Source of the DNA: a virus
Taxonomy: Duplodnaviria; Caudoviricetes
Direction: 5' to 3' (one strand)
Length of the DNA stretch: 60,357 nucleotides
Virus record (IMG/VR): IMGVR_UViG_3300044568_001950
Span: 1 to 60,357 of that record
The notes below the pieces were generated by a model. It was not told the DNA's origin and did not search any database. It saw only the letters and a list, made by a program, of their open reading frames with translations. Positions 39,819 through 43,380 of this stretch are shown in pieces (positions within the stretch are counted from its first letter, which is position 1; each line of letters begins with the position of its first letter). Both the position numbers and the translations under genes were made by a program.

Positions 39819-40141
39819 AAAAACTTATAGCAATTTTGCTATGTGTGCCGTGCATGGCAAGTGCCGAGTTCATGAGTGGCAACAGCCTTCATAGCAAAAT
39901 GACTGGAGATTTTGGTGACAAGATGCAAGCCTTGGGTTTTATTCAAGGTGTATTTGATGTGTACGTCAGCGTCACGTTTTGCTCGCCGGATAATGTAACC
40001 GCCGGACAAGTGTCCGACATGGTCAAGAGATACTTGGATAACAATCCCTCGACTCGCCATAAGACCGCAGAATCCTTGATCAACCTGGCTTTGAAGCAGG
40101 CATGGCCTTGCGCTAATAATCGTGGGAATAATCGGTTATGA
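39815..40141 (+). CDS. Rap1a-like (T6SS amidase immunity family) secreted protein
   Basis: Signal peptide; GNSL...GFIQGVFD...FCSP..VTAGQV...YL..NP..RH..A..LI..AL..AWPC. Confidence 0.75.
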   Translation: MKKLIAILLCVPCMASAEFMSGNSLHSKMTGDFGDKMQALGFIQGVFDVYVSVTFCSPDNVTAGQVSDMVKRYLDNNPSTRHKTAESLINLALKQAWPCANNRGNNRL

Positions 40142-40335
40142 AATTGTTTGCTCTTTTCGCCTTGATAGTATTTTTTCTATGGGTCGGTTGGAGCATTGGG
40201 TATGAGAACGGGCTAAAGGACGGGTGCAGGAACGCCTTGAACATAAACCCACCAAGCGAGTCCATGGAATTAGCGTGCGCCGCCCTATGGGTTGGCGAAC
40301 AAAGCAAAAAGTGGCAGGATAAGACTAAAAAGTGA
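40138..40335 (+). CDS. Small membrane-anchored protein
   Basis: N-terminal TM segment, ATGA-coupled. Confidence 0.55.
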   Translation: MKLFALFALIVFFLWVGWSIGYENGLKDGCRNALNINPPSESMELACAALWVGEQSKKWQDKTKK

Positions 40336-40631
40336 AGGGAAGAACCATGGACTACTATGAAGCCAAAAGGCTTGCCGAAGCTTGGACCACGGGCCAGGAC
40401 GTTAGCCAAGACGGGTGGCGCTCCGTTATCCGCGTCCTGATGGACCACATCTACACTATGGAGGCAGATCTAAAGAGTGCCTACAGCAACTGCCAACGCC
40501 TGCGCAGTGAGAACGAATCACTGTCCTTGGACCTCGGGATCAAGAACAATGACTTTAAACTGCCACCTCAACCACAGTTAAAGACCGTGGCGGATATCAT
40601 CAAAGAATGCTCCGACAAGGCAAGCTGGTGA
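40332..40631 (+). CDS. Hypothetical protein
   Basis: 99 aa, coupled on both sides. Confidence 0.55.
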   Translation: MKGRTMDYYEAKRLAEAWTTGQDVSQDGWRSVIRVLMDHIYTMEADLKSAYSNCQRLRSENESLSLDLGIKNNDFKLPPQPQLKTVADIIKECSDKASW

Positions 40632-40861
40632 CTTTCGGCGAAGGCTTACAGGCACTCCTCGGTCGCGGTCCGGAGGAGAAGATTCAGCTTGTTTACATCA
40701 CGCTTGAGAACGGCAAGGTGCTTGTGTTTCTCGGCGCCCCGGTGACGCCTGAGGATGCCGATCAGATTTCTGAGATTACGTTCGGGGAACAGATGTCCCC
40801 GTTTTTATTAAGCCTCGCGGTTTCCTCGCTGGGCACAGTTGATGGGTTTACAACACAATGA
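40628..40861 (+). CDS. Hypothetical protein
   Basis: GTGA-coupled start at 40628. Confidence 0.5.
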   Translation: MTFGEGLQALLGRGPEEKIQLVYITLENGKVLVFLGAPVTPEDADQISEITFGEQMSPFLLSLAVSSLGTVDGFTTQ

Positions 40862-41016
40862 CAATACCTGCGTGGTTAATTGCGTTTATCGCCGTTCAAT
40901 ATGCGGCAATTGCGTTCTTATTCTATAAAGATGGTCAGCCATGGTTGGCTGTCACTTATTTTGGTTACTTGGTGGGCAACGTCGGATTGACGATGATTGC
41001 CTTGGGTCACAAATAG
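40858..41016 (+). CDS. 52-aa two-TM membrane protein (absent from the ORF track)
   Basis: MTIPAWLIAFIAVQYAAIAFLFYKDGQPWLAVTYFGYLVGNVGLTMIALGHK; ATGA-coupled; stops 5 nt before the repeat array. Confidence 0.65.
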   Translation: MTIPAWLIAFIAVQYAAIAFLFYKDGQPWLAVTYFGYLVGNVGLTMIALGHK

Positions 41017-41021
41017 CTCGA

Positions 41022-41331
41022 GGTATGGCATGCCAAGATAAGGCATGGTCAGGTAGTGTAGGGCGCGGTTCGGTGTGGTTAGGTGCGGTTAGGCTAGGCG
41101 CGGCACGGCTCGGCAATGTTCGGCAGGGCTAGGTTGGGTATGGTGAGAAGTGGTCCGGTATGGTGAGGTATGGGTTTCTTAATGGAGCTTGGTTGGGTTT
41201 GGCAGGATTGGCCCCGGTGAGGTGTGGCTAGGCTTCATTAAGAAGCCCGTAAGGGCTTTATCTGGAAGGGCAGGGCGGGGCATTGTCTGGCTAGGTCCGG
41301 TGCGGTACGGTTCCCCACGTTGGGGGTTTTT
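41022..41331 (+). ncRNA. GGY-NN pentamer array with hairpins; candidate guide RNA(s) for the adjacent Cas7-like protein
   Basis: Three in-phase blocks (41022-41171, 41191-41235, 41264-41313); 40 of 49 pentamers begin GGC/GGT; intergenic; hairpins between and after the blocks. The repeat is certain; the RNA role is inferred. Confidence 0.75.
41312..41331 (+). terminator. Terminator-like hairpin closing the array
   Basis: TCCCCA-CGT-TGGGGG-TTTTT. Confidence 0.55.
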
Positions 41332-41349
41332 CATATAGGAGAAAGTAGA

Positions 41350-41967
41350 ATGGCTAAGTCCAATTTGAAAGTCGTTAGTGATGTAACCAATGGCGGCAAG
41401 AGCGCCATTGAACAGGGTTTCCCTTATGCTGTAGCTGTACGGGCTCAAGGCGCGGCGGATCTGTTGTTCCACCGTTGGAACTGCGAGTCAGTCGATGCGA
41501 AGTCCAAGGCCGCCAAGAACTCAGCGGCCAAGAAGACAGATGACATCGAGTCCTACGTTTGGAGAAACGAAAAAGATGAACTCTGTATCCCAGGGGAGTA
41601 TTTTAGGCAGTCCATTATCCATGCTGCGAAATTTAAGCAAGACCCCCGTTCTCCGCGTAAATCCGCGATGGATCTCTTCAAAGCCGGGGTCGTTTCACTT
41701 ACTCAGTTGGCGTCACTTGGTAGCGATGAGTGGGACTACCTTGACACTCGTCGGGTCACAGTACAGCGAGCCGGAGTTAATCGAACAAGACCTGCCATGC
41801 GCATCGGATGGGAAGTGGATATACAGTTTCAAATACTCACCCCTGAGTATATCGACCCCCACCTTTTTCAAGACGTACTGAACACGGCAGGCCGCCTCGT
41901 AGGCGTTGGAGACTTCCGCCCAACGTACGGACGTTTTAACATCACAAACTTTGAGGTGCTCTCATGA
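41350..41967 (+). CDS. Stand-alone RAMP/Cas7-like RNA-binding protein (205 aa)
   Basis: AGGAG RBS; beta1 YAVAVRAQGAADLLFH, ELCIPGEYFRQSIIHAA (cf. RAMP IPGSSxKGxxR), thumb-like hairpin TRRVTVQRAGVNRTRP, C-terminal Gly loop AGRLVGVGDFRPTYGRF. Confidence 0.75.
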   Translation: MAKSNLKVVSDVTNGGKSAIEQGFPYAVAVRAQGAADLLFHRWNCESVDAKSKAAKNSAAKKTDDIESYVWRNEKDELCIPGEYFRQSIIHAAKFKQDPRSPRKSAMDLFKAGVVSLTQLASLGSDEWDYLDTRRVTVQRAGVNRTRPAMRIGWEVDIQFQILTPEYIDPHLFQDVLNTAGRLVGVGDFRPTYGRFNITNFEVLS

Positions 41968-42386
41968 TTAAAAAGCCTGCCAAGAAAGCGAAAGGTAAGC
42001 CCCTATCCCGTACGGTAAAGCGTACGCAAAAAAGTGCGGTTAAGAAGGCGAAAGGTAAGCCCCTATCCCGTACGGTAAAGCGTACGGTCAAGAAGGAGAA
42101 ACTTACGCCGCTGGCCCAGCTCGTTGCAAAGTGGGACAAGGACCAAGGGCCACTGCCCAGTCTTTACGACACGGCCACCCAGCTTGATGACGTGGTCACC
42201 ACGCTCACCAATATCCAGCACCTGATGGACTCCGCCCTGAATGACTGCGTGGACCTCACCAACAACGACCGCGCGCTTTCCTTACTCTACCTTGCGCACG
42301 GGATGGTTAAGGGAGTGATCGATAAGACCGACCCGCTAATCTCGGACCTTTACCGCATCAACCGGGCCACGTTGGACCTAAAGTAA
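41964..42386 (+). CDS. Protein with duplicated basic N-terminus and helical C-terminus
   Basis: ATGA-coupled to the Cas7-like gene; KKAKGKPLSRTVKRT occurs twice. Confidence 0.65.
   Translation: MIKKPAKKAKGKPLSRTVKRTQKSAVKKAKGKPLSRTVKRTVKKEKLTPLAQLVAKWDKDQGPLPSLYDTATQLDDVVTTLTNIQHLMDSALNDCVDLTNNDRALSLLYLAHGMVKGVIDKTDPLISDLYRINRATLDLK
41988..42086 (+). repeat. 39-bp perfect direct repeat, 60-bp period
   Basis: GCGAAAGGTAAGCCCCTATCCCGTACGGTAAAGCGTACG at 41988 and 42048. Confidence 0.95.
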
Positions 42387-42842
42387 GGATTTTTTCTTAC
42401 GCTTTGGAGCCGGGTGTAATGGCTCCAGGGACATACAGTCGATAGGACCGCCCGTAAGGGGGTCGTAGAGGGACGCAATCTCTATGGCCTCCTTGGGGCT
42501 CTTGCCCAAGTGCAAGGCCGCTATGGCGTATCCTGAGCCAGTCCCGATGGCATAGAAGTCGTTTTTGATCCTCGCAGGGATCAAAGTGCTCTCGTAGACC
42601 CAAATCCCGTCCCGCCGAAGCTCCAACATCTCGATATCACAGTCCTCATCCAACTCGTCGCCCTCTTTGGGGTGCTCGAGCATGCTAAAGGCCCCCAAGA
42701 TATCCTTCCAGTCGCCCGCCGCCCCGTAGATCGATTCTCGGCCCCTACGGAGCTTTTCCACAAAGTACTTGATGTCATCCCCACTGACTTGAGAGTCGGC
42801 GGCAATCTCGAGCGTTGAGAACCTGGCGGCGATCGTGGTCAT
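42378..42842 (-). CDS. HslV/proteasome-beta-like Ntn peptidase
   Basis: MTTI N-terminal Thr, IAADSQ, AIGTGSGYAIAAL, AIEIA..D..TGG. Confidence 0.8.
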   Translation of the reverse strand: MTTIAARFSTLEIAADSQVSGDDIKYFVEKLRRGRESIYGAAGDWKDILGAFSMLEHPKEGDELDEDCDIEMLELRRDGIWVYESTLIPARIKNDFYAIGTGSGYAIAALHLGKSPKEAIEIASLYDPLTGGPIDCMSLEPLHPAPKRKKKSLL

Positions 42843-43222
42843 AGCTCTTCCTTTTGCATGCTCCTGTTGTACGCCCGAATGGCCTGATGTTCGTTGAAAT
42901 GCTCTATCCGATGGCAGTTGGCACACAAGACCTCACACTTCTTGACTTCCTCGTACGCCTGCGAAAAGCAGTTGTCCATCACCAACCGATTCACGTCCTT
43001 CTTGGTCCCGTCCCGCGTGGGGTGGTGGAAGTCAATAATCGCCGGGTGCGACGCACCACAACGCGAACAAACTAGAGTGCTCTTATATTCCAACCACTTG
43101 GCACGGTTCTTTCTGCGTAAAGCATTCACCGCGTCTTGAATGACACGCTTATTGTTCTCGTAGTACTTCTTTCCGTATTCACGGTTCTTAACCCGCCTGA
43201 CCTCAGGATCCTTGTACGGCAT
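42839..43222 (-). CDS. HNH endonuclease
   Basis: CSRCG...IDFHH...KCEVLCANCHRIEH; likely start MPYKDP. Confidence 0.85.
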   Translation of the reverse strand: MPYKDPEVRRVKNREYGKKYYENNKRVIQDAVNALRRKNRAKWLEYKSTLVCSRCGASHPAIIDFHHPTRDGTKKDVNRLVMDNCFSQAYEEVKKCEVLCANCHRIEHFNEHQAIRAYNRSMQKEEL

Positions 43223-43380
43223 GACACTCCCCATTGAATTGGTGTGGGGGACTTGGATAACCCCAATCGTCAAAAAAGGGCGCCCCCACAGGGTTATCGT
43301 ACCCTGAGTGCATGAAACGTCAATGAGTTACCCGTCATACCCATGAGAGGTAACTCGGTGGGTGGTTAGGGGATCAAGTG

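What the first reader, a model, noticed from the sequence alone, without database searches (positions are those of the whole stretch)
41172..41331. Hairpins punctuate the array into separate units, with alternative folds
GGGTTTCTTAATGGAGC (41172-41188) pairs over 17 bp with GCTTCATTAAGAAGCCC (41232-41248). Both deviations are G-U wobbles on the + strand, and the stem loops out block 2. It competes with AAGCCC-GTAA-GGGCTT (41243-41258, GNRA loop). Block 3 ends in TCCCCA-CGT-TGGGGG-TTTTT. This supports a + strand RNA with processing or capping handles giving 2-3 mature guides, and possibly attenuation or autoregulation of the downstream gene.
Basis: partly seen in the sequence, partly recalled or inferred. 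Interest (0 to 1): 0.7.

Follow-up and report, generated by a model that had tools for sequence, protein, structure and literature searches.

The report
Hairpin boundaries in VIPR guide array
The hairpins are real, conserved RNA structures that mark the ends of guide RNAs in a phage VIPR system, a recently described relative of CRISPR; one long helix unusually encloses a whole guide, but the system itself is already known.

Summary
The 17-bp pairing is the core of a 27-bp gap-free helix (41169-41195 with 41225-41251, 8 G-U). None of 500 shuffles reached 17 bp.

In 12 relatives 251 of 252 cells pair, and 7 of 21 pairs show compensatory changes. The G-U pairs place the helix on a + strand RNA.

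The locus is a VIPR system, known from 2026 preprints. A Vipr RAMP protein (41350-41967) matches the SUSP1 Vipr in the PDB. Upstream lie GGY-NN pentamer guide RNAs (vrRNAs), which carry structured 3' tails. The hairpins are therefore clade-specific vrRNA boundary and tail elements.

Three points go beyond the text I could read:
- The tails of two successive guides pair into a 21-28 bp helix that nests a whole guide block. This holds in 16 of the 19 loci with such stems, of 156 examined.
- A conserved CCC-tetraloop-GGG-U hairpin competes for the 3' arm.
- A terminator-like hairpin sits directly before the vipr ribosome-binding site.

Cutting by a double-strand RNase and attenuation are inferred, not shown. 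This scan had already noted stem-bracketed VIPR arrays in other genomes. I class it as a new variant of a known kind.

The parts
41022..41176 (+). Block 1: 31 five-nt units in one phase, 26 of them starting with GG (GGY-NN). This is the vrRNA repeat tract or tracts. Its last unit, GGGTT, is the base of the long helix.
   Evidence: In all 16 of 16 relatives the helix base is the last in-phase unit.
41029..41047 (+). Leading hairpin CATGCC-AAGATAA-GGCATG at the start of the array. It is conserved in relatives.
   Evidence: It occurs once in the genome.
41169..41195 (+). 5' arm of the long helix.
41184..41235 (+). Block 2: ten GG units with two phase slips, nested in the long helix. In relatives it is clean (8-10 units) and its NN positions are hypervariable.
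41225..41251 (+). 3' arm of the long helix.
41243..41258 (+). Small competing hairpin AAGCCC-GTAA-GGGCTT with a GNRA loop, followed by TTTAT. Its 3' arm holds the first GGY unit of block 3.
41254..41313 (+). Block 3: 12 units in one phase, 10 starting with GG. Its NN positions are hypervariable among relatives.
41312..41331 (+). Terminal hairpin TCCCCA-CGT-TGGGGG plus T5. It is terminator-like and serves as the 3' tail of the last guide. It ends 5 nt before the AGGAG ribosome-binding site (41337-41341).
   Evidence: It is present in 16 of 16 distinct clade-A sequences.
41350..41967 (+). vipr: a 205-aa RAMP/Cas7-fold protein.
   Evidence: PDB 36pp_D 'SUSP1 Vipr protein', E = 2.2e-5. 35% identity over 77 aa. 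Model pLDDT 93.9; top Foldseek hits are the Cas7 subunits Csm3 and type VII Cas7.
41964..42386 (+). Candidate vap accessory gene, overlapping vipr by ATGA.
   Evidence: No Pfam or PHROG hit. No similarity to SUSP1 vap1.

Best explanation
The intergenic region 41017-41349 is transcribed on the + strand as the guide-RNA (vrRNA) array of a phage VIPR system. The hairpins are this clade's version of the structured 3' tails that end each guide.

Guide tract 1 ends in a tail, the 5' arm. That arm is complementary to the tail of guide 2, the 3' arm. The two tails zip into a 21-28 bp helix that starts exactly at the last GGY unit of each guide and loops guide 2 out. Guide 3 ends in a short CCCC/GGGG hairpin with a U-run.

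Shown: the helices exist, they are conserved by compensatory change, they are strand-specific, and they sit at block ends.

Inferred:
(a) The helices stop and cap the Vipr filament at the 3' end of each guide, as the SUSP1 pseudoknot does.
(b) The long perfect helix is the cutting site of a double-strand RNase, with host RNase III the obvious candidate, which separates the units.
(c) Once the helix base is opened, by Vipr holding the last GGY unit or by cleavage, AAGCCC repairs with GGGCUU. Guide 2 then gets a hairpin-U tail like that of guide 3.
(d) The last hairpin is a leaky terminator, so vipr is read by read-through from the array.
For: System identity:
- The Vipr homologue lies directly downstream.
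- GGY-NN units occur only at this locus in the genome: 20 of 20 matches lie in 41042-41311, against 0 expected.
- 78 of 81 homologous loci carry such blocks.
- NN is hypervariable and indels come in steps of 5 nt among close relatives.
- The published description is 9-16 repeats plus a structured 3' tail that caps the filament.

Long helix:
- 27 bp in the window, with 0 of 500 shuffles reaching 17 bp.
- 251 of 252 cells pair; 7 of 21 pairs change on both sides; covariation score 0.380 against 0.267 in shuffles, with 0 of 500 shuffles as high. Slid partners give 35-62% paired.
- RNAalifold predicts the same 21 pairs on its own.
- It is the minimum-free-energy fold in 16 of 16 relatives.
- Stems of 17 bp or more were found in 19 of 156 loci. 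All 19 have a Vipr at least 71% identical to this one. 16 nest 7-15 GG units and 3 (L003-L005) have a 14-nt loop.
- In L010 the arms alternate in orientation, so every block is bracketed.

Small hairpin:
- 14 of 16 relatives have one by script criteria, overlapping the 3' arm by 5-10 nt. The other two have an equivalent.
- Its arms change together: AAGCCC/GGGCTT, AGCCTTC/GAAGGTT and AACCTAA/TTAGGTT.
- It appears next to the shortened helix in 13 of 16 folds when block 1 is held unpaired.

Terminal hairpin: present in 16 of 16 distinct clade-A sequences.

Other: another Vipr clade has a different three-hairpin tail after each block, also with compensatory changes. A contig from an RNA library spans 41025-41537, from the array into vipr. 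This is weak support, because DNA carry-over is not excluded.
Against: - There are no RNA ends. The laid runs are contigs and cannot show 5' or 3' ends, and DNA contamination is possible.
- Block 1 has 31 units with no internal stem, so hairpins do not delimit every guide if guides are 9-16 units long.
- Block 2 in this phage has two phase slips and may be impaired.
- The small hairpin is never in an unconstrained minimum-free-energy fold, 0 of 16.
- The small hairpin gives no significant covariation in a fixed register: 88.9% paired, and 66 of 500 shuffles score as high.
- The small hairpin is not formed in the constrained fold of the window itself or of L084.
- The terminal stem is invariant CCCC/GGGG, so it offers no covariation.
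- Clade B relatives lack both small hairpins; there GG is followed only by a U-run.
- No target was found for any block, so guide function here is inferred from family membership.
- Nothing I read connects RNase III to VIPR.
Confidence: 0.6

Rival explanations
1. The stems form a Vipr-responsive attenuator, in the manner of TRAP. The long helix acts as an anti-terminator. When Vipr coats block 1 through its last unit GGGUU, the helix base opens. AAGCCC then pairs with GGGCUU to form a terminator, and less transcript reaches guide 3 and vipr. That would be negative autoregulation. At the last hairpin, Vipr on GGUUC could instead weaken the stem.
For: - The helix base is the last in-phase GGY unit in 16 of 16 relatives.
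- The competing hairpin shares 5-10 nt with the 3' arm in 14 of 16 and is followed by 3-5 U in most.
- It forms in 13 of 16 folds when block 1 is held unpaired.
- The array lies directly upstream of vipr. The terminal hairpin ends 5 nt before the ribosome-binding site, and no promoter-like site was found in 40500-41800.
Against: - The competing hairpin has only 3 G-C pairs, and its U-run is partly inside the stem. The terminator scan did not call it.
- It does not form in the window's own constrained fold.
- Clade B keeps the long helices but has no competing hairpin.
- The two proposed effects of Vipr, more termination at the first site and less at the second, pull in opposite directions.
- No experimental data exist.
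Confidence: 0.15
2. The long helix is simply the tail of guide 1, as in L003-L005 where its loop is 14 nt. Block 2 in this phage is a decaying insertion that yields no working guide, so only two kinds of guide mature.
For: - L003, L004 and L005 have the same 22-bp helix without a nested block.
- The window's block 2 has GG spacings of 4 and 6 nt (and direct reading).
- The first and last units of block 2 are absorbed into the helix.
Against: - In 15 other loci the nested block has 7-15 in-phase units.
- Its NN dinucleotides differ widely between close relatives while GG is kept, which is the published signature of a working guide.
- L083 keeps the same slipped block.
Confidence: 0.1
3. The stems are by-products of how the array grows, that is, by duplication and inversion of unit-plus-tail modules. 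The 'alternative folds' would have no function of their own.
For: - The 3' half of the small hairpin (GGGTTT) has the same sequence as the helix base.
- In L010 the arms alternate, so neighbouring pairings follow automatically.
Against: - Similarity between the two GGGTTT copies does not extend beyond about 6-8 nt: 12-16 identities in 22, against a control mean of 11.5-13.2.
- Seven helix pairs keep pairing through changes on both sides, and 47 G-U cells stand against 1 mispair. That argues for selection on the RNA helix itself.
- The tetraloop geometry is kept in most relatives.
Confidence: 0.1
4. The element works at the DNA level, as a cruciform, an origin or a protein-binding iteron array, or it is a minus-strand RNA.
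For: The tract is G-rich on one strand and lies between replication and packaging genes.
Against: - With Watson-Crick pairs only, the longest stem is 9 bp.
- The 47 G-U cells would be A-C mismatches on the other strand.
- All flanking genes are on the + strand.
- The published system reads these repeats as RNA.
Confidence: 0.03

Closest known systems
vrRNA 3' tails of the type II VIPR system of Escherichia phage SUSP1 (bioRxiv 10.64898/2026.04.26.720920 and 10.64898/2026.04.26.720927; Results, named Methods sections and passages read)
   Same: - A GGY-NN repeat tract is followed at once by a conserved folded element with compensatory changes.
- The fold begins at the last GG.
- A Vipr RAMP gene is adjacent, and one guide lies upstream of vipr.
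   Different: - The SUSP1 tail is a roughly 40-nt hairpin plus pseudoknot, the same on every guide.
- Here there is no sequence similarity to it; only repeat-to-repeat matches were found.
- The three tails differ from one another, and two of them pair with each other and enclose a guide.
- The last tail is a terminator-like hairpin.
- The Vipr proteins share only 35% identity over 77 aa, and the accessory genes are unrelated.
Other published VIPR array layouts: staggered arrays, hammerhead-ribozyme-interspersed arrays and single vrRNAs (same preprint; main text and legends of figs S18-S20, read)
   Same: Several guides sit in one transcript, with some device at the unit borders. Block 1, with 31 units and no internal stem, could be a staggered array.
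   Different: No ribozyme is present: the Rfam scan of 40000-42500 gave no relevant hit. The borders are long perfect helices and small hairpins. The words stem, inverted, nested, RNase and terminator do not occur in that paper's text.
RNase III processing stalks, such as the helices that bracket 16S and 23S rRNA in bacterial rRNA operons, and tracrRNA:pre-crRNA duplexes in type II CRISPR (recalled from general knowledge, not from a call)
   Same: A functional RNA is looped out by an uninterrupted helix of about 20 bp or more, formed by its flanks.
   Different: Cleavage here is untested. Several relatives have shorter helices: 12+6 bp in L008b and 15 bp in L092a.
TRAP-controlled trp leader of Bacillus subtilis (recalled from general knowledge, not from a call)
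   Same: Short repeats at about 5-nt spacing are bound by a multi-subunit protein. The last repeats overlap the 5' arm of a helix whose 3' arm is shared with a downstream hairpin.
   Different: The binding protein is a RAMP filament rather than a ring. The downstream hairpin is a weak terminator. Regulation is not shown.

Membership tests
VIPR system (Vipr + vrRNA) | A Vipr protein (minimal RAMP with G-loop) is encoded at the locus. | tested here: met
   - PDB 36pp_D 'SUSP1 Vipr protein', E = 2.2e-5, including the G-loop.
- BLASTP against SUSP1 YP_009199429: 35% identity over 77 aa, E = 4e-10.
- AlphaFold model pLDDT 93.9; top Foldseek hits are Cas7-type subunits.
VIPR system (Vipr + vrRNA) | Tandem GGY-NN (YNNGG) pentamers, 9-16 per vrRNA, lie in the flanking intergenic DNA. 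| tested here: met
   Block 3 has 12 units, block 2 has 10 (irregular) and block 1 has 31, which is longer than published. All 20 matches to six units in a row lie in 41042-41311, against 0 expected.
VIPR system (Vipr + vrRNA) | GGY is conserved and NN is hypervariable among related loci. | tested here: met
   In the alignment of 11 close relatives, blocks 2 and 3 keep GG but differ in NN, and indels come in 5-nt steps. The 3' part of block 1 is conserved instead.
VIPR system (Vipr + vrRNA) | A structured 3' tail follows the repeat tract. | tested here: met
   A helix or hairpin begins at the last GGY unit of each block.
VIPR system (Vipr + vrRNA) | The vrRNAs are expressed and bound by Vipr. 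| not testable with these tools
   Only contigs from RNA libraries were available: 41025-41537 in X15 and 41068-41232 in X16. DNA carry-over is not excluded.
VIPR system (Vipr + vrRNA) | NN dinucleotides match a DNA target under the 1-nt skip rule. | tested here: inconclusive
   In 1.33 Mb of held sequence no score exceeded the scrambled controls. There were 0 exact hits for block 3 in IMG/VR. Mismatch-tolerant searches of large collections were not possible.
Type II VIPR (SUSP1 / P. fulva clade) | The SUSP1-type pseudoknot tail and a vap1 accessory gene. | tested here: not met
   There is no similarity to the SUSP1 tail sequences. The downstream 140-aa gene has no similarity to SUSP1 vap1. 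The type cannot be assigned, because the type tables are in closed supplements.
Hammerhead-ribozyme VIPR arrays | A hammerhead ribozyme sits between guides. | tested here: not met
   The Rfam scan at E up to 10 over 40000-42500 gave one unrelated hit outside the array.
Intrinsic (Rho-independent) terminator, terminal hairpin | A G+C-rich stem directly followed by a U-run. | tested here: met
   Six pairs, a 3-nt loop and T5 at 41312-41331. Present in 16 of 16 clade-A sequences. Actual termination is not testable here.
RNase III substrate, long helix | Roughly two turns (about 20 bp or more) of uninterrupted dsRNA. This criterion is recalled from general knowledge. | tested here: met
   27 bp here and 21-28 bp in 15 other loci. 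Cleavage itself is not testable with these tools.
Protein-mediated attenuator (TRAP type) | Mutually exclusive anti-terminator and terminator, with the protein-binding repeats overlapping the anti-terminator. | tested here: inconclusive
   The overlap geometry is met in 16 of 16 relatives, and the hairpins share 5-10 nt in 14 of 16. The 'terminator', however, is weak and was not called. It is also absent from the constrained fold of the window itself.

The most novel reading that the evidence does not exclude
In this Vipr clade the guide array may control its own maturation. The tails of neighbouring guides would pair into an RNase III-type stalk that nests a guide. Vipr loading onto the last GGY unit would flip the stalk base to a competing hairpin-U element. 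That would couple guide loading to cutting, to 3'-end formation and to read-through into vipr. In effect an RNA-guided effector would regulate its own gene through its guide precursor.
Probability: 0.15. Interest if true: 0.7.

Novelty: new variant of a known kind. Interest (0 to 1): 0.4.

Why it matters
VIPR was first described in 2026. The texts I could read do not say how several guides are released from one precursor, apart from hammerhead and staggered arrays. Nor do they say how vipr expression is set.

This clade offers a concrete and testable layout. Complementary tails form a long helix around a guide, a conserved competing hairpin shares its 3' arm, and a terminator sits at the vipr ribosome-binding site.

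If a host double-strand RNase cuts here, VIPR would share a maturation logic with rRNA and with type II CRISPR. That would also show how to build multi-guide VIPR arrays for engineering. If not, the result is still a useful catalogue entry: tails differ between clades, and tail-based vrRNA callers trained on SUSP1 would miss these.

Tried and rejected
Before I knew of VIPR, I considered several readings of the period-5 GG signal: a TRAP-like host RNA-binding protein, a CsrA or Hfq sponge, G-quadruplex or R-loop origin DNA, and an antisense Rho site. I dropped them once the VIPR preprints and the PDB match explained the repeats.

- Rfam gave no family.
- The promoter scan found no sigma-70-like site in 40500-41800, so the transcript start is unknown.
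- A paper search for pentanucleotide repeats, bacteriophage and RNA-binding returned only unrelated human repeat papers.
- The fixed-register covariation count for the small hairpin was not significant. Two relatives use a shifted register, so I replaced the count with a per-sequence scan.
- Target searches found nothing. Local scoring under the 1-nt skip rule over 1.33 Mb gave no score above scrambled controls. An exact scan of IMG/VR for ten block 3 dinucleotides gave 0 hits.
- Sequencing runs: four RNA-library runs were laid, all as contigs. X17 gave nothing and X19 covered only part of vipr. No ends, joints or strand information were obtained. I make no claim from parts without cover.
- The regex attempt to collect the three-hairpin tails of the other clade failed. 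I rely for that clade.
- The test for duplication between the helix base and the 3' half of the small hairpin showed no similarity beyond the shared GGGTTT.
- No paper in the library holds both 'vrRNA' and 'RNase III'.
- I did not use the complex-prediction tool or the protein atlas.
Data S4 and figs S16-S18 of the discovery preprint may already show this layout or assign this clade to a type.

Full report
**What is there.** The window is a complete 60,357-bp phage genome with terminal repeats. The finding lies in a 333-nt intergenic region (41017-41349). Upstream is a 52-aa ORF. Downstream is a 205-aa gene (41350-41967) that Pfam does not recognise and that PHROGs places in a family of unknown function. 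Written in rows of five, the region is an array of GGY-NN pentamers. Block 1 (41022-41176) has 31 units in one phase, 26 of them starting with GG. Block 2 (41184-41235) has ten GG units with two phase slips. Block 3 (41254-41313) has 12 units, 10 of them starting with GG. Six such units in a row occur nowhere else in the genome: all 20 matches lie in 41042-41311 on the + strand, against 0 expected.

The 17-bp pairing is exactly as described, with wobbles only at U41175-G41245 and G41185-U41235. It is the core of a 27-bp gap-free helix, 41169-41195 with 41225-41251, containing 8 G-U pairs. The helix is in the minimum-free-energy fold of both regions I folded. None of 500 dinucleotide shuffles gave a stem of 17 bp or more (maximum 16). 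With Watson-Crick pairs only, the longest stem is 9 bp. AAGCCC-GTAA-GGGCTT (41243-41258) and TCCCCA-CGT-TGGGGG-T5 (41312-41331) are present, and the latter was called terminator-like.

**Identity of the system.** Four 2026 preprints describe VIPR. For the discovery paper I read the Results, the Discussion, two Methods sections and the figure legends. I read passages of the other three.

VIPR consists of a minimal RAMP protein, Vipr, and vrRNAs. A vrRNA has 9-16 YNNGG repeats followed by a conserved structured 3' tail. In phage SUSP1 the tail is a hairpin plus pseudoknot that caps a 12-protomer filament. The NN dinucleotides read double-stranded DNA with a one-nucleotide skip.

The window's protein matches the PDB chain named 'SUSP1 Vipr protein' (E = 2.2e-5, including the G-loop). 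It is 35% identical to SUSP1 YP_009199429 over 77 residues. Its model has pLDDT 93.9, and the best structural matches are Cas7-type subunits. The family is large: 1184 representatives at E up to 0.001. Of 81 homologous loci, 78 carry in-phase GG blocks next to the gene. Among close relatives, blocks 2 and 3 keep GG but differ in NN, and length changes come in steps of 5 nt. That excludes a coding reading and matches the published signature of guides.

**The long helix is a selected RNA structure.** I collected 156 loci with upstream sequence. In an alignment of 12 distinct clade-A sequences:
- 251 of 252 cells form a standard pair.
- 7 of 21 pairs keep pairing through changes on both sides.
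- 47 cells are G-U and one is a mispair.
- The covariation score is 0.380 against 0.267 for shuffles, and 0 of 500 shuffles are as high.
- Sliding the partner by 1-3 columns drops pairing to 35-62%.

RNAalifold predicts the same 21 pairs independently. The helix is the minimum-free-energy fold in 16 of 16 relatives.

Stems of 17 bp or more (at most 34% G-U) occur in 19 of the 156 loci, all with a Vipr at least 71% identical to this one. Of these, 16 enclose 7-15 in-phase GG units. Three (L003-L005) have the same helix with a 14-nt loop and no block. In L010 the arms alternate in orientation, so every block is bracketed and neighbouring pairings compete. In 16 of 16 sequences the base of the 5' arm is the last in-phase GGY unit of the preceding block. 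The top of the 3' arm is the last unit of the nested block.

**The two small hairpins.** By script criteria, a 5-8 bp hairpin, mostly with a tetraloop, overlaps the 3' arm by 5-10 nt in 14 of 16 relatives. L008a and L101 have an equivalent, seen. Its arms change together with the 3' arm: AAGCCC/GGGCTT, AGCCTTC/GAAGGTT and AACCTAA/TTAGGTT.

The case for this hairpin has limits:
- A fixed-register count is not significant.
- It is never in an unconstrained minimum-free-energy fold.
- It has only three G-C pairs.
- It forms beside the shortened helix in 13 of 16 sequences when block 1 is held single-stranded, as Vipr would hold it. It does not form in the window's own sequence.

Its 3' arm contains the first GGY unit of block 3. 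The terminal CCCC/GGGG hairpin with a U-run is present in all 16 distinct clade-A sequences. It is absent from 21 distinct clade-B sequences, where the last GG is followed only by a U-run. In the window it ends 5 nt before the AGGAG ribosome-binding site, and no promoter-like site was found nearby. vipr is therefore probably read from the array transcript.

**Comparison with what is published.** The SUSP1 tails have no sequence similarity to these stems. Another Vipr clade, 68-69% identical to this protein, has a different tail of three consecutive hairpins after each block, again with compensatory changes. Tails are thus clade-specific.

The discovery paper lists four layouts: tail arrays, staggered arrays, hammerhead-ribozyme arrays and single vrRNAs. 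Its text does not contain the words stem, inverted, nested, RNase or terminator. No paper in the library combines vrRNA with RNase III. Supplements were closed. Within this scan, stem-bracketed VIPR arrays were already noted in other genomes (e1-5664113, e1-5901584, e1-5822416), and hairpin tails in many more. The layout is therefore not unique to this phage.

**How it most likely works.** The following are shown: the strand, the helices, their conservation and their position at block ends.

The following are inferred. The helices cap the Vipr filament at each guide's 3' end. The long, perfect 21-28 bp helix is a cutting site for a double-strand RNase that frees the units. Opening of its base lets the small hairpin give guide 2 a hairpin-U tail like that of guide 3. 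The last hairpin is a leaky terminator.

I give this reading 0.6. A Vipr-responsive attenuator gets 0.15. A block 2 that is inert in this phage gets 0.1. Stems as by-products of array growth get 0.1. A DNA-level or minus-strand element gets about 0.03.

**Evidence from RNA libraries is weak.** One contig of a relative spans 41025-41537, from the array into vipr. Another spans 41068-41232. Contigs show no ends, and DNA carry-over is possible. No DNA target was found for any block.

**Verdict.** The feature belongs to a known system, and I class it as a new variant of its array architecture.

Noticed in passing
41029-41047: A hairpin CATGCC-AAGATAA-GGCATG sits at the very start of the array. It is conserved in close relatives, with one G-C to G-U change. 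It could be a 5' boundary or a processing signal. It occurs once in the genome.
   Followed up: partly
41122-41176: The last 8 or so units of block 1 (GGTAT GGTGA GA[A/C]GT GGTNN GGTAT GGTGA GG...) are nearly identical across clade-A relatives, whereas blocks 2 and 3 are hypervariable. This suggests either a conserved target or a part of the tail.
   Followed up: no
41022-41176: Block 1 has 31 units, about twice the published 9-16 per vrRNA, and no internal stem. It has degenerate units at 41057, 41117 and 41147. It may be a staggered array that yields several guides.
   Followed up: no
L040, L076, L077, L079 (locus coordinates): Some relatives carry single in-phase blocks of 49-71 pentamers. 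Many have their arrays directly downstream of vipr (from about +615) instead of upstream.
   Followed up: no
L019-L036, L132, L141-L149: A sister Vipr clade ends each block with three consecutive hairpins: GCTGC..GCAGC, a 14-bp stem with a 3-nt loop, and GATGC-GTAA-GCATC. The 14-bp stem shows many compensatory variants.
   Followed up: partly
41964-42386: A 140-aa gene overlaps vipr by ATGA. It has no Pfam or PHROG hit and no similarity to SUSP1 vap1. It is a candidate accessory (vap) gene of an untyped VIPR.
   Followed up: partly
L001 5198-5815 (OR003939.1): The Vipr homologue of phage DSL-LC04, 96.6% identical, is annotated 'helix-turn-helix transcriptional regulator'. This is probably a misannotation.
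   Followed up: partly
42378-43273 (- strand): An HslV-family peptidase-like gene and an HNH endonuclease gene lie on the opposite strand just after the VIPR locus.
   Followed up: no
L012, L117 (last 40 nt before vipr): These relatives have GGGG-TTTTT-CCCC before the ribosome-binding site. That is the inverse order of the clade-A CCCC-loop-GGGG hairpin.
   Followed up: no
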